This document shows, piece after piece, positions 7,917 to 62,911 of a stretch of 64,000 nucleotides of DNA. The notes under the pieces are model-generated. The model searched no databases, was not told where the DNA came from, and was given only the letters and a program-made list of their open reading frames with translations. A program made the position numbers and the translations under genes. The stretch comes from Eledone cirrhosa (lineage: Eukaryota). Each line of letters opens with the position of its first letter. The stretch's first letter is position 1. The DNA is taken from positions 37,014,001 to 37,078,000 of the forward strand of contig OZ024749.1 of NCBI GenBank assembly GCA_964016885.1, read 5' to 3'.

Positions 7917-8140
7917 AACGAAGGAAATGTGGTAAGGAACCAGGTGGACCATAACGCACCAAAGTACTCAATACTTAGGGTAGTAGAGTGGGTAATAGGA
8001 ACGAGTAGGACCCCGACGGCTGAGCTCAAGCCGTTTCGATGGCTAATTCTGGACTAAATGAACAAAAAAATTTTCATTTAGTCCAGAATTAGCCGTCGAA
8101 ACGGCTTGAGCTCAGCCGTCGGGGTCCTACTCGTTCCTAT
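7917..8140. mobile_element. PLE-like fold-back terminus, family A (partial hammerhead in both arms)
   Basis: Inverted arms 7995-8062 / 8073-8140 plus a 78-bp unpaired tail; contains GAAAC-GGCT-TGAGCTC-AGCC-GTC-GGGG; flanked by (AT)n; paralogues at 20090, 39187 and 62716. Confidence 0.75.
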
Positions 8141-8732
8141 ATATATGTATATGTATATATATATATATATATACATATAGATATATTTATATATACGTAC
8201 ATATATATAAATATATGTATGTGTATATATATATATATATATATATATATATATATGTGTGTGTGTGTGTCTGTGTGTGTATATATGTATATATATATAT
8301 ATATATGTGTGTGTGTGTGTACATATATGTATATGTATACGTACACAATCTGAAGTGATAGAGTGCAGACTGTTTATAAACGAAACACTTTAAAATCTCT
8401 CTTACAAGCTATTTACGTCAAAATTCACTATCTTTCTAACTACCTATATATCTATCTGCCTGTTTGATATTTCACTATCTACTTATTAATATTATCACAC
8501 ACATACCTACATACATATATACATGCATATATACATACATATATACATACCTACAATTATATATACATACCTACAGACATATGCATACATACATACATAC
8601 ATACATGTATACATACATATATACATATATGCTTACATATATACATACCTACAATTACAGATACATACATATATATATATATATATATATATATATATAT
8701 ATATATATATATATATATATATATATATATAT

Positions 8733-9236
8733 AAGAGGGTGTTAAAGTTTGCTTGAAGCATTGTGAAATGTGTAAAATACGTAGTTTAGAAAGCCACAAC
8801 AATGCAGAGGGAAATCTCGAGGTAGGAAGTGAATGATAGATAGGAGAAATAGGAGAAAGTGAAAATTGAGAGAGACAAAGATGAAAACAAAACAAAGGTA
8901 GAAGGGTTACCGTAGTGGAGATTTAATCCCAATATTTCGGGCTCACGCCCATCAACGGGGGAAAGTTCCAAAAGGGGGGGAAACAGGCCAATCCGGAGAA
9001 AGTTGTGATGTCGTTAAAACAGGAATGCCGTTATGATGGGCGTGAGGAATGCCCCTTTGATGGGCGTGAGCCCGAAATATTGGGATTAAATCTCCACTAC
9101 GGTAACCCTTCTACCTTTGTTTGGTTTTCATCTTTGTCTCTCTCAATTTTCACTTTCTCCTATTTCTCCTATCTATCATTCACTTCCTACCTCGAGATTT
9201 CCCTCTGCATTGTTGTGGCTTTCTAAACTACGTATT
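8733..9236. mobile_element. PLE-like fold-back terminus, family H (~180-bp inverted arms)
   Basis: 8776-8955 is the near-perfect reverse complement of 9057-9236; tail 8733-8775; (AT)n on both sides; paralogue at 59179-59319. Confidence 0.75.
8927..8962 (-). ncRNA. minimal hammerhead-like motif with non-canonical core
   Basis: Minus strand TCCC-CCGTTGA-T-GGGC GTGA GCCC-GAAAT-ATT-GGGA: stems I and II pair, but the core deviates from CUGANGA at two positions. Confidence 0.45.
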
Positions 9237-9729
9237 ATATATATATATATATATATATATATATATATATACTGACATAAATACATACCTACAGTTATAT
9301 ATACATACATATATACTTACATATATACATACCTACAATTATATATACATACCTAAAGAGACATGCATACACAAAAACGTACGTACATACATACGTATAT
9401 ACATACATACATAGATATATACTGACATACAAGCATAAATAAATACATACATACATATATACGTACATGCATATATAAATAGCTATATACTGACATACAT
9501 GCATATTTTAATACTTACATATATACGTACAAGCATATATACATACGTACGTATATACATACTTACATACAATACAGGTATATACCTACATACCTATCTA
9601 ACTATTTCTATTTTTCTCACCGTATATATACAGTGTATATACAGGTATATACACAGGTATATACACATATCTATCTATCTATCTATCTATCTATCTATCT
9701 ATCTATCTATCTATCTATCTATCTATCTA

Positions 9730-10955
9730 TTTTATTTTTTGTTATATCTTATTTTGTTTTTATATTTTGTTGTTGCCTTCTCCTTATTGAGGACGCCTTT
9801 TTGTGTGGACTCCCCCTTTGTGCTTGTCCCACTTTTGATGCCCTAGTGGCAAATAAAAGGAAATATATCTATCTATCTATCTATCTATCTATCTATCTAT
9901 CTATTACGCCACCCTCCTTCAAAAACGAAGGAGAGGCGGTTTTCCTTTGTGTGATAGCTATGGCGAAAGAGGTTGTATGGTGGACAAGGTTGAAAGGGCT
10001 GAGGTCAGACACCTTTCTCTCCGGCCAACAACTGATTCTTTTTTTCAAATACCACTTTGGAAGAAGAATCAGGATGGAGAGAGAGGTGCTGTACCCCAGC
10101 AAGTTTTATGAAAGGTGGGTAAAAGTGGCGAGAATGGCCCGAGTGAATGGGCCTTCTCTCTATATCAGCCTGTAGGTTGAGGAAAAGGAGGAGGAGAGGA
10201 AGGGAGTACAAGCTCTTCGTACTCCTGGAGATGAGGGTTGCACATTTTTTTTCGGGGGTATGTGTTACCCATATAAACTGTCTCCCTCTATTGGGGAAAA
10301 TCGACTAACTTTTAAATTCCATCTGTAATAACATTTTACACGTTTTTATTGTATGTAAACTTCCCCCTTTGTATTTGTCGTCTTCTTTTGTGCCCCTGTG
10401 GCTAATAAAGAAATATATCTATCTATTATGGTGAAAGAGGTTATATGGTGGACGAGGTTAAAAGGGCTGAGGTCAGACACCTTTCTCTCCGGCGAGCAAC
10501 TGATTCGTTTTTTCAAATATCATTTTGGAAGAAGAATCAGGATGGAGAGAGAGGTGCTGTACCCCAGGATGGAGAGAGAGGTACTGTACCCCAGGATGGA
10601 GGGAGAGGTACTGTACCCCAGGATGGAGAGAGAGGTGCTGTACCTCAGCAAATTTGATAAAAGGTGGGTGAATGTGGCAAAGATGGCCCGAGTGGTTGGG
10701 CCTTCTCTATATATAAGCCTGTGGGTTGATGAAAAAGAGGAAGAGAGGATGGGAGTACTCACTGTTGTTGCTCCTGGAGATGAGGGTTGTACATTTGTTC
10801 GAGGTGTGTACAACCCCTGTGTAACACCTCCACCCCTATTGGGGATTTCAATTGTTATTTGTTTTTGTATTAATAGTTTTATTTTCATATACTGTATGTA
10901 AACTCCCCATTTGTATTTGTCCCCTTCTTTTGTGCCCCTGTGGCTAATAAAGAAA
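9730..10955 (+). mobile_element. three stacked 5'-truncated 3' ends of an L1/Tx1-like LINE within (ATCT)n
   Basis: Copies at ~9730-9865, 9905-10415 and 10428-10955 each end in GCCC(C/T)(T/A)GTGGC(T/A)AATAAA then (ATCT)n; ORF2 C-terminus AKEVVWWTRLKG...LIxFFKYHF..RIRMER is shared with the zinc-knuckle-bearing copy at 41775. Confidence 0.75.
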
Positions 10956-60950: not shown

Positions 60951-61127
60951 TACTGTATTTCCCGGCGTCGAAGAAGTTACTTTTTTCCTAAAATAATTCT
61001 AAAAAATCTACCATGCTTCCTGGAGGCTGAAGGTTGCATTTTTATATTTATTATTTTTTTCTTAATTTTTGGTTGTCAAAATTAGGGTGCGTCCTCGTGG
61101 ACGTCTTCGGCGCCGGGAAATACGGTA
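60951..61127. mobile_element. Tigger/pogo-type MITE
   Basis: TA-CTGTATTTCCCGGCGTCGAAGA ... TCTTCGGCGCCGGGAAATACGG-TA: TIRs with TA target duplication. Confidence 0.85.
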
Positions 61128-61377
61128 TCTTTTATTTTATTATATTTATGTATCATTTGATATTTAATGTACTATTATATCATCTCTACCGCACCTCTCC
61201 CACCCATCACCAGTCACTGGACATTTTCAACGCAGTGGTGCCCCCTTTGGGAACTTCTGATCTATTCATTTGGATCAGCAGAGACATAAAATGTATAAAA
61301 CTACATAAATTTGGGAGAGGAACATCTCCTATGTAGATTTTGCTATTGGTATTAGGGTGTCATACTACTAACTGAGT

Positions 61378-61520
61378 TATAGATAGATAGATAGATAGAT
61401 AGATAGATAGATAGATAGATAGATAGATAGATAGATAGATAGATAGATAGATAGATAGATAGATAGATAGATAGATAGATAGATAAATAGATAGATAGAT
61501 AGATAGATAGATAGATAGAC
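61378..61520. repeat. (GATA)n microsatellite
   Basis: Direct inspection. Confidence 0.97.
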
Positions 61521-62715
61521 ATGCATAAACGGCTTCAATAGAACGATTTGGTTAAGTGATATTGTGTTCAGCCCTGTTACCAAACCACAACATCACACTG
61601 AATAAAGTGTATAAATAACATATCTCTTCATTGATAATAGTATATATATACACGCACACATATATATATATATGTATATATATATATATATATATATATA
61701 TATATATATATATATATATATATATGTGTGTGTGTGTGTGTGTGTGTATGTATATATATACTATTATCAATGAAGAGATATGTATATATATATGTGTATT
61801 TATATATATATATATATATATATATATATATATATATATATATATATATATATATACACATATTTACAAACATATATACATATATATATACTACATATAT
61901 ATATGTGTGTGTGTGCGCGTGTGTATATATATGTATATATGTATATATATATATATATATATATATATATATATATATATATATATATATATATATATAT
62001 ATATATATATATATATATACAATATATTAATATATGCATATATGTATATATATATATATATATTTATGTAGGTGTGTGTGCATAATGTGTATATACATAT
62101 ACACACACATACACACACATATAGACACAGGCAGACACAGATTCTCATTGACACAATACATGGGTTGATAATGAGGGTTATCTTACAAGTGGTAAGACCA
62201 TTAGGGTTAGGGTCTCGTCAGCAACAACCACACACATATACTACACATATGCACATTTACACACATGCACACTTACACACATACACACATGCACACTTAC
62301 ACACATACACACAAACATAATCTCTCCCTTTCTCTCTATTACACACTTTCTCAATTTTATATAGAAAGGAAGGGACATACATATACATATATGCATGTAT
62401 ATATCTATACATACTTACATATGTTCTCCCCCACCATATATATATACACATACACACATATATATATATATATATATATATATATATATATATATATATA
62501 TATATATATATATATATATATATATATATATACATATATATATATATATATATATATATATATATATATATATATATATATATATATATATATATATGTA
62601 TATATATATATATATATATATATATATATATATATATATATATATATATATATATATATATATATATGTATATATATATATATATATATATATATATATA
62701 TATATATATATACAT

Positions 62716-62911
62716 AACAAAGGAAATGTGGTAAGGAACCAGATGGACCATAACGCACCAAAGTACTCAATACTTAGGGTAGTAGAATGGGTAATAGGAA
62801 CGAGTAGGACCCCGACGGCTGAGCTCAAGCCGTTTCGACGGCTAATTCTGGACTAAAATGATTTTAGTCCAGAATTAGCCATCGAAACGTCGGGGTCCTA
62901 CTCGTTCCCAT
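62716..62911. mobile_element. family A PLE-like fold-back
   Basis: Arms 62794-62858 / 62862-62911; the right arm lacks the stem III hairpin. Confidence 0.8.

What the first reader, a model, noticed from the sequence alone, without database searches (positions are those of the whole stretch)
7917..62911. A dense, diverse library of hammerhead ribozymes in (AT)n-embedded islands
Seen: about 20 type I hammerhead folds (stem I-CUGANGA-stem II-GAAA-stem III-UH-stem I') from more than 10 mutually unrelated families. Locations: 8927, 16100/16236, 19117, 19481, 26677, 37857, 39010, 39280, 39535, 45651, 46659, 47386, 48161, 48399, 48772, 52863, 53432, 59499, 60497. Nearly all lie in 100-600 bp islands directly bounded by (AT)n and carry no ORF. 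Established: Penelope-like elements carry type I HHRs in their pseudo-LTRs and often insert as truncated, inverted termini. Inference: many (AT)n-targeting PLE or retrozyme-like families have colonised this genome, roughly one motif per 3 kb here, and may be mechanistically coupled to its microsatellite load.
Basis: partly seen in the sequence, partly recalled or inferred. Interest (0 to 1): 0.92.

Follow-up and report, generated by a model that had tools for sequence, protein, structure and literature searches.

The report
Ribozyme-bearing stubs of Penelope-like retrotransposons
The short islands between the TA repeats are the hammerhead-shaped ends of a known kind of jumping gene (Penelope-like elements), present at an estimated 300,000 intact-looking motifs in this genome, and many are likely short reverse-transcribed copies that stop where the element's own RNA is predicted to begin; self-cutting has not been tested.

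Summary
Real, but mostly a known system. Of the 20 listed motifs, 7 have an intact core and fold, 7 are decayed copies of families intact elsewhere, 2 have atypical family-wide cores and 4 are unresolved. The window holds 8 intact folds against 1.7 in shuffles. It is not special: 98 blind stretches give 144 against 34, about 336,000 genome-wide. Six listed families, and two unlisted ones, sit directly beside RT/GIY-YIG frames of Penelope-like elements (four Hydra-type); Hydra-1_Obim with a hammerhead and (TA)n preference is published. One family is an ORF-less 592-bp tandem, retrozyme-like. Added here: stub 5' ends pile up at a sharp edge about 30 nt behind a TATA-like box in 4 of 8 families, not at the cleavage site, and in one family inside the ribozyme. 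The stubs are likely run-off copies from the internal RT start to the transcription start. Microsatellite coupling: targeting and cargo shown, causation not. The scan noted the same elements before, in this and other genomes.

The parts
15869..16394 (.). Head-to-head stub of the 592-bp ORF-less tandem family; intact U3-A8 hammerheads at 16189-16100 (-) and 16236-16325 (+)
19056..19250 (.). Diverged stub of the 60497 Hydra-type family; intact fold 19114-19170 (+), compensatory change in stem I
19478..19576 (-). Intact long-stem-II hammerhead (island 19430-19726); family present elsewhere, no ORF link found
26232..26867 (.). 3' UTR and pLTR of a GIY-YIG-bearing PLE with inverted arm; hammerhead 26677-26719 (+) with G5>A
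37740..37946 (-). pLTR end of a Penelope/Poseidon-like element; atypical CCGAAGA core near 37857
38404..38441 (-).
38969..39159 (-). Stub of the 45651 family; hammerhead 39074-39009 with G8>A
39188..39465 (-). Longer stub of the 39280/7917 Hydra-type family; U3-A8 core kept, stem I interrupted by an insertion
39494..39636 (-). Decayed hammerhead-like island (39535), no relative in the DNA held
39655..39834 (-). Old, decayed copy of the 60497 superfamily
45612..45793 (-). Stub with intact hammerhead 45716-45648; a subfamily about 80% identical sits directly before a Hydra-type ORF
46640..46710 (+). Decayed minimal hammerhead (46659), GACA in place of GAAA
47370..47430 (+). Decayed minimal hammerhead (47386), cleavage triplet lost
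48163..48216 (-). Hammerhead 5' half cut off by (AT)n (48161); unresolved
48233..48521 (-). Stub with hammerhead 48480-48397, G8>A; family intact in 2 of 3 other copies
48731..48864 (-). Decayed long-stem-II hammerhead (48772); only distant relatives
52771..52956 (.). Head-to-head stub of the 60497 family; both arms damaged at the junction
53250..53532 (.). Stub with intact hammerhead 53432-53509 (+); family sits directly before a Hydra-type ORF in L217
59458..59615 (-). Decayed long-stem-II hammerhead (59499), C3>A, 66% like the 19481 family; flanked by GA and CA repeats
60494..60672 (.). Head-to-head stub of the 60497 Hydra-type family; intact fold 60545-60497 (-)
8734..9235 (.). Head-to-head stub of the 8927 family; hammerhead-like fold with a shortened first core strand on both arms
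7917..8137 (.). Head-to-head stub of the 39280 family holding only the 3' half of the hammerhead
20091..20207 (.). Stub of the 39280 family, 3' half of the hammerhead only
62717..62911 (.). Head-to-head stub of the 39280 family, 3' half of the hammerhead only
63341..63425 (.). Tail of the pLTR of a full-length Neptune/Nematis-like element (L061), no hammerhead left

Best explanation
The islands are the hammerhead-bearing terminal repeats (pLTRs) of many Penelope-like retrotransposon families that sit in (TA)n tracts, often as two copies joined head to head, and many are likely run-off reverse transcripts that start at the element's two fixed internal sites and stop at the predicted start of its RNA. 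Shown: family membership, contiguity with RT/GIY-YIG frames, two fixed 3' ends per family, TA flanks, clustered 5' ends. From the literature (PMC11167929): a PLE protein nicks AT-rich DNA on both strands and starts cDNA at two internal sites on uncleaved RNA. Inferred: the protein primes on the upstream pLTR of its mRNA, 60-190 nt from the 5' end, so it runs off after a short stretch; two such cDNAs on the two target strands are joined by end joining, which gives an ORF-less palindrome centred on or near the hammerhead. Long and full-length copies would come from read-through or tandem transcripts. The hammerhead would be a passenger in the stubs; its likely job is to cut read-through RNA. One family (16100/16236) is a non-autonomous 592-bp tandem that probably borrows this machinery.
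For: 60497 family: hammerhead directly before a 753-759-codon open frame (714 aa from the first Met in the 759-codon copies) in 6 of 10 fetched copies, tail alone before it in 2 more, second hammerhead behind it in 7 of 10. 39280 family: 3531-bp tandem units with 784-codon frames and a hammerhead in each. 45651-related and 53432 families before Hydra-type ORFs; 26677, 37857, 38404, 45973 behind GIY-YIG or PLE ORF ends with no AT break. RVT_1 and GIY-YIG Pfam matches in the Neptune-like ORFs. Two 3' ends per family. Upstream arm inverted in 18 of 23, 41 of 57, 29 of 39 copies. 3' end abuts AT repeat in 18 of 23 and 51 of 57 copies against 7.6% background. 5' ends: 19 of 23 and 46 of 62 in one 30-nt window, p<=0.0003 against memoryless truncation; TATA-like box 29-31 nt before the edge in 4 of 8 families (nominal P 0.0009). 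Ends at the cleavage site are rare: 0 of 23, 1 of 62, 1 of 106. Public contigs show a step of about 20-fold at the same edge in the 39280 family, loose ends at +39 to +43, and a fall of some 300-fold behind the long 3' end (depth is only a hint and the runs may be the assembly's own sample). Core 3-8 pair covaries across families (13 of 79 family hits U3-A8); stem I pair 4 A-U/C-G in the 60497 superfamily.
Against: No RNA data and no cleavage test. The TATA pattern was chosen after I saw the first two families; 4 of 8 families show no such box and 3 of 7 no significant clustering; two of the four hits rest on 4 of 11 and 2 of 8 copies. ORF-bearing copies mostly begin far upstream of the edge (8 of 13 beyond -70, 1 at -12 in the 60497 family), which needs the extra read-through assumption. 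In the 39280 family a small hairpin in stem II lies at the edge and could itself cause fold-back. The hammerhead is not the lowest-energy fold for 60497, 19117 or 38404 as monomers. No ORF partner was found for 19481, 48399, 39535, 48161, 48772, 59499, 16100; links for 8927 and 47386 rest on one locus each.
Confidence: 0.72

Rival explanations
1. Same elements, but the stubs arise by ordinary 5' truncation: the RT stalls or folds back on the ribozyme's structure (or self-primes on an antisense template, as proposed for Adineta Penelopes), so the edge marks RNA or cDNA structure, not a transcription start.
For: The two sharpest edges lie at or in the hammerhead. A hairpin lies in stem II at the 39280 edge and a second, smaller pile-up sits just 3' of stem I (+91 to +101). 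PMC3846280 (passages) explains head-to-head palindromes by self-priming. An earlier scan note on a shark-type genome found ends at the hammerhead's front edge.
Against: The edge is at -7 in one family, +39 to +46 in another and about -43 in two more, so it does not keep a fixed place on the ribozyme, but it keeps 29-31 nt from a TATA-like box in these four. RT passes the strongest hairpin of the 39280 ribozyme (stem III) in most copies. Junctions carry varied extra bases rather than one fixed loop.
Confidence: 0.2
2. Most islands are independent non-autonomous retrozymes that copy through cleaved, circular RNAs.
For: One family is an ORF-less 592-bp head-to-tail unit in 6 of 8 other loci, 96-100% identical, and folds well as a circle (-168.8 against -132.9 +/- 6.1 kcal/mol). 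Stubs vastly outnumber ORFs.
Against: Eight families are contiguous with PLE coding sequence; stubs do not begin at the cleavage site and are head-to-head, not tandem.
Confidence: 0.06
3. The motifs are chance folds in AT-rich, palindrome-rich DNA.
For: No Rfam match at gathering score; no excess at the one-mismatch level; about a quarter of descriptor hits are expected by chance (34 of 144); four listed motifs have no close relative.
Against: Four- to fivefold excess of intact folds, 79 of 112 hits in 16 multi-locus families, core and stem covariation, fixed position in pLTRs.
Confidence: 0.02

Closest known systems
Hydra clade of C-terminal EN+ Penelope-like elements, incl. Hydra-1_Obim of Octopus bimaculoides (Craig et al. 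2021, PMC8557442; section 11, passages and supplement rows seen)
   Same: Single RT-EN ORF of about 710 aa with RWR/RWK, DKT, LYRDD, CxCX5C linker, CxxC and CxH round the EN; type I hammerhead at the 3' end; (TA)n insertion; inverted truncated copies; tail. The N-termini resemble the printed Hydra-1_Obim protein by eye.
   Different: At least four Hydra-type families at 42-49% identity, with pLTRs resolved (the published consensus is marked 'no pLTR'), many near-identical open frames, and in one family a 2.4-3.7-kb microsatellite-rich 3' UTR.
Minimal and U3-A8 hammerheads of metazoan PLEs (Cervera and de la Pena 2014, PMC4209133; parts 1-2 of 4 read)
   Same: Type I folds in pLTRs, many families per genome, mostly single or opposite-strand pairs 100-700 bp apart from truncated PLEs, extra base after A9, palindromic short stem III, U3-A8 variant.
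   Different: Estimated number here (about 270,000-340,000) is far above the 9,000 (Xenopus) and 4,000 (coelacanth) given there; stems II reach 50-60 nt; descriptors differ, so the counts are not strictly comparable.
PAc Poseidon element of Anolis (Frangieh et al. 2024, PMC11167929; parts 1-2 of 4 read)
   Same: Two internal RT start sites that define the tail, AT-rich target, uncleaved RNA as template.
   Different: Tails here are 61-151 nt, the start sites of the Hydra-type families lie in the 5' UTR, and that paper's parts that I read do not tie stub 5' ends to a transcription start.
Non-LTR retrozymes (Cervera and de la Pena 2020, PMC7229834, passages; Li et al. 2026, 10.64898/2026.07.22.740005, part 1 of 5)
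   Same: The 16100 family is an ORF-less tandem with one type I hammerhead per unit.
   Different: 592 bp against 150-450 bp, with a PLE-type tail, inverted arms and a U3-A8 long-stem core; circular RNA not shown.
Neptune/Nematis-like and Penelope/Poseidon-like PLEs (clade features from PMC8557442 passages)
   Same: DKG, RYLDD and a CX4CxxC linker in the 45973 and L061 families and in the ORFs before the 38404 family; DKG and RYVDD in the 37857 family.
   Different: Clade assigned by motifs only; no tree with reference sequences.

Membership tests
Type I hammerhead ribozyme | Core CUGANGA (or U3-A8), GAAA and UH with stems I-III in type I order | tested here: met
   8 folds in the window, 7 of the 20 listed
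Type I hammerhead ribozyme | Excess over composition-matched shuffles | tested here: met
   8 vs 1.7; 144 vs 34.2
Type I hammerhead ribozyme | Covariation in core and stems | tested here: met
   3-8 pair C-G/U-A across families; stem I pair 4 in the 60497 superfamily; relatedness not controlled
Type I hammerhead ribozyme | Rfam hammerhead model at gathering score | tested here: not met
   0 matches
Type I hammerhead ribozyme | Self-cleavage at the UH site | not testable with these tools
   needs an in vitro or RNA-end assay
EN+ Penelope-like element | RT plus C-terminal GIY-YIG frame flanked by pLTRs that hold the hammerhead | tested here: met
   L061, L201-L210, L253-L256; 6 listed and 2 unlisted families linked
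EN+ Penelope-like element | Inverted 5'-truncated copy and optional 3' tail | tested here: met
EN+ Penelope-like element | ORF partner for 19481, 48399, 39535, 48161, 48772, 59499, 8927, 46659/47386 | tested here: inconclusive
Hydra clade | RWK-type motif, DKT, CxCX5C linker, CxxC and CxH beside conserved E and N, no N-terminal EN | tested here: met
   60497 and 39280 ORFs; RWR/RWK and DKT in 45651- and 53432-linked frames
Hydra clade | Insertion into (TA)n | tested here: met
   18 of 23 and 51 of 57 3' ends
Hydra clade | Placement in the RT tree with reference Hydra sequences | not tested
   reference proteins were seen only as paper text
Non-LTR retrozyme (16100 family) | ORF-less tandem units, each with a type I hammerhead | tested here: met
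   592-bp unit across the junction in 6 of 8 other loci; longest stop-free stretch 86 codons
Non-LTR retrozyme (16100 family) | Expressed as circular monomer RNA | not testable with these tools
   needs RNA data
Non-LTR retrozyme (other families) | Head-to-tail ORF-less tandem units | tested here: not met
   head-to-head stubs and ORF-linked pLTRs instead

The most novel reading that the evidence does not exclude
This genome is a fossil record of PLE transcription: hundreds of thousands of stubs are run-off cDNAs whose 5' edges mark each family's transcription start, and in the young 39280 family that start lies inside the hammerhead, so the element's own mRNA carries half a ribozyme and only read-through RNA can cut itself. 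That would give the long-open role of PLE hammerheads (processing read-through transcripts, sparing the template) a direct test, in the genome with the largest hammerhead count I found reported.
Probability: 0.45. Interest if true: 0.68.

Novelty: new member of a known kind. Interest (0 to 1): 0.45.

Why it matters
The elements, their hammerheads and their (TA)n preference are published, including for an octopus. Two things would add to that. First, scale: about 1 intact fold per 9 kb, some 300,000 in all, above the 120,000 of the axolotl, the highest figure in the papers I read; a recent octopus repeat annotation does not mention ribozymes (PMC13282606, 0 occurrences in the main text). Second, mechanism: if stub edges are transcription starts, they explain why PLE debris is ORF-less, palindromic and centred on the ribozyme, and they predict which transcripts can self-cleave. 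Families with dozens of intact, near-identical frames give ready material for the test.

Tried and rejected
Rfam E-value scan: the 150 rows shown were microsatellite matches to miRNA and similar models, 604 rows not seen. Descriptors without a mismatch or bulge at the base of stem II missed most motifs. DNA searches of the own genome with the 60497 tail and with the 16100 upstream part returned nothing, though both are known to be there; no inference drawn. The apparent link of the 16100 family to a GIY-YIG frame in L056 was rejected: it is a nested insertion in that element's microsatellite tract. Idea that the reading frame runs open from the cleavage site into the ORF (non-AUG start): true in the 60497 and 39280 families, closed in the 45651 and 53432 families, dropped. 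Idea that stubs are copies of cleaved RNA: 1 of 106 begins there. Empty-site test of whether insertion lengthens (AT)n: 38 of 129 stubs had clean flanks, no true empty site found. Sequencing runs: no RNA holder listed. First contig overlay was confounded by the end of the stretch and is not used. The 37857 and 38404 breakpoint rows were left out of the TATA count (another repeat in the reference; 4 copies). Literature searches: hammerhead+Penelope-like+microsatellite, hammerhead ribozyme+octopus, Penelope-like+Hydra+cephalopod, Penelope+truncated+inverted repeat+transcription start site+pLTR and four others listed no octopus hammerhead census and no paper tying PLE truncation points to a transcription start; subscription papers are not searched, and the preprint's supplements could not be seen.
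Full report
Setting. The window is G000:C9:37014001-37078000 of a 3.0-Gb genome, about 12% (AT)n. I did not identify the source. The proteins found resemble the printed Octopus Hydra-1_Obim by eye, so an octopod-like host is my inference.

Observation. Rfam finds nothing at gathering score. 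A type I descriptor that allows a bulge or mismatch at the base of stem II, stems II up to 90 nt and any Watson-Crick 3-8 pair finds 8 intact folds: 16100, 16236, 19117, 19481, 38404, 45651, 53432, 60497. Sixty shuffles in 200-nt blocks give 1.7 on average, at most 4. With one core mismatch the count is 40 against 41. So the signal is real, but damaged motifs can be accepted only through their families. BLAST against the loci held sorts the 20 listed motifs into 7 intact, 7 decayed or cut members of families whose relatives keep the missing part, 2 with a family-wide atypical core (8927, 37857) and 4 without close relatives. As monomers, 19481, 45651, 53432 and 16236 fold close to the hammerhead shape (1 to 9 of 200 shuffles as stable), while 60497, 19117 and 38404 do not.

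The window is ordinary for this genome. In 98 stretches of 10 kb taken at round coordinates away from the window (979,800 bases) the descriptor finds 144 folds against 34.2 in shuffles, or 102 against 14 at a stricter score. That scales to about 336,000 (bootstrap 235,000-447,000) or 269,000 (185,000-365,000) genome-wide. In the first 70 stretches plus the window, 79 of 112 hits fell in 16 families seen in two or more loci, and 13 of these 79 had U3-A8 in place of C3-G8. Published figures I saw: about 9,000 in Xenopus and 4,000 in coelacanth (PMC4209133), over 6,000 in Acropora, about 5,000 in mussel, up to 120,000 in axolotl (PMC7229834 passages). Descriptors differ.

What they belong to. A GIY-YIG search gave 10,597 first-look candidates, 150 scored. 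Long frames among them are RT-linker-EN proteins, such as the 938-codon L061 with a hammerhead on each side. The 38404 and 45973 families lie 310-660 nt behind such frames without an AT break, 26677 about 190 nt behind its own GIY-YIG end, and 37857 on both sides of a DKG/RYVDD frame. Long copies of the 60497 and 39280 families carried pieces of another protein type in their inverted arms. Searching with these pieces gave 58,475 and 36,174 candidates (not copy numbers), the 150 scored mostly 94-98% identical. Ten fetched copies show the 60497 hammerhead directly before a long ORF in 6 and behind it in 7. The 39280 family forms 3531-bp tandems with 784-codon frames. A subfamily about 80% identical to 45651, and the 53432 family, also sit directly before such ORFs. 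These four proteins are 42-49% identical to each other and at most about 30% to the DKG-type ones; the two complete ones carry RWR, DKT, LYRDD and CxCX5C, the marks of the Hydra clade (PMC8557442 section 11). Its supplement lists Hydra-1_Obim with (TA)n preference and a hammerhead. The 16100 family differs: a 592-bp ORF-less unit in head-to-tail order in 6 of 8 other loci, folding well as a circle. No ORF partner was found for 19481, 48399 and the four unresolved motifs; 8927 and 47386 have one locus each.

Anatomy of the stubs. I mapped copies at 88% identity or more on long references, leaving out loci fetched by that family's own query. Each family has two 3' ends, counted from core position 3: about +57/+126 (60497), +103/+186 (39280), +193/+254 (26677), +92/+204 (45651), +157/+308 (16100). 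This is the tail that PMC11167929 traced to two internal RT start sites. The 3' ends abut AT repeats in 18 of 23 and 51 of 57 copies against 7.6% background, and the DNA upstream is an inverted arm in 18 of 23, 41 of 57 and 29 of 39. The 5' ends are not spread: 19 of 23 and 46 of 62 (57 after removing duplicates) fall in one 30-nt window, p<=0.0003 against memoryless truncation; 26677 p 0.006, 45973 p 0.03; 45651, 16100 and L061 not significant. They do not fall at the cleavage site (0 of 23, 1 of 62; 1 of 106). The densest 8-nt windows begin at -7, +39, -43 and -44 in four families, and TATA-like boxes begin at -36, +14, -72 and -75; four other families have none. The nominal chance is 0.0009, but I chose the pattern after seeing two of the cases. 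Contigs of two public runs of one sample show, for the 39280 family, a depth step of about 20-fold at +39 to +46, loose ends at +39 to +43, AT loose ends at +103 and +183, and a fall of some 300-fold beyond. That depth is no copy number and may come from the assembly's own sample.

How it most likely works. Shown: PLE origin, fixed 3' ends, TA targets, head-to-head joins, clustered 5' edges. Known: nicking of AT-rich DNA on both strands, internal priming, uncleaved template (PMC11167929); TATA and initiator motifs in a pLTR (PMC3846280 passages). Inferred: priming on the upstream pLTR of the mRNA, run-off at its 5' end, joining of two short cDNAs. In the 39280 family the predicted start lies inside stem II, and most stubs, such as 7917, 20091 and 62717, lack the first core strand; only read-through RNA would hold a whole ribozyme. 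Against: ORF-bearing copies mostly start far upstream (8 of 13 beyond -70, one at -12), half the families show no box, and a hairpin at the 39280 edge could cause fold-back. I put the PLE identity near 0.97 and the run-off step near 0.5-0.6.

Microsatellite coupling. Targeting: the median distance from a fold to the next downstream (AT)n is 151 nt against 1,137 for random places; folds and AT runs per 10 kb correlate at rho 0.35 over 108 stretches. Cargo: in 6 full copies of the 60497 family the 2.4-3.7 kb between ORF and downstream hammerhead is 58-74% alternating purine-pyrimidine repeat with 490-978 bases of (AT)n, nested insertions included; the 39280 family has none. Whether insertion lengthens tracts could not be tested: no empty site among 38 stubs.

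Verdict. A real and very large population of known elements. Earlier notes of this scan reached the same identity and a like count in this genome, and one found ends at the hammerhead edge in another genome. The tie to a TATA box and the start inside the ribozyme were in no note or paper that I found. Novelty: new members of a known kind. Interest 0.45.

Noticed in passing
window 19867-19954 (+); partial copies near 16454, 49018, 59888 (+) and 55502 (-): A high-copy TA-flanked family with hammerhead core parts in non-circular order (UH and stem I 3' strand first, then GAAA, then CUGANGA). In 15 distinct copies stem I pairs 3-6 show compensatory or wobble changes and stem III is almost fully paired. 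Earlier scan notes call it a Naiad, SGC-type hammerhead; stem II and the Naiad link were not checked.
   Followed up: partly
L114, L161, L316, L056, L311, L238; window 15869-16394: 592-bp ORF-less tandem with U3-A8 hammerhead, 96-100% identical across loci: candidate PLE-derived retrozyme.
   Followed up: partly
L253, L254 (G000:C1:437199000-437208900; C2:51275000-51284900): Head-to-tail arrays of a Hydra-type element, about 3.5-kb period, near-identical 784-codon frames; many more intact frames listed. Probably still active.
   Followed up: partly
L063 5138-6400, L074 5110-6300, L056 1780-2290: A second, DKG-type PLE family also carries a long TA/TG-rich tract right behind its stop codon.
   Followed up: no
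L040 970-1000; window about 26620: The 26677 family's 5' ends cluster at -67 to -60, at an AAGATGGCG motif that I recall as YY1-like; no TATA box.
   Followed up: no
window 60610-60625, 7960-7975 (other strand), 19200-19215: A GTATTGAGTAC motif is shared in the tails of the 60497 and 39280 families, with GAGTGCT in 45651, 19481 and 53432 tails: perhaps the protein-binding site.
   Followed up: no
window 1280-7400, 16700, 25980, 26962, 28590, 44580, 49200-49880, 56720-57495: About 180-bp SINE-like repeat in at least 18 islands, with four copies in tandem at 56720-57495.
   Followed up: no
window 27160-28040; 31879-37665; 58130-58750; 55525-55724: A 22-nt tandem array, a long GGT/GAT-rich minisatellite, a short-period tandem and a 200-base N gap.
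   Followed up: no
window 9905-10954 and 41741-42240: Fragments of a LINE-like element (76% to an RT frame end in L065).
   Followed up: no
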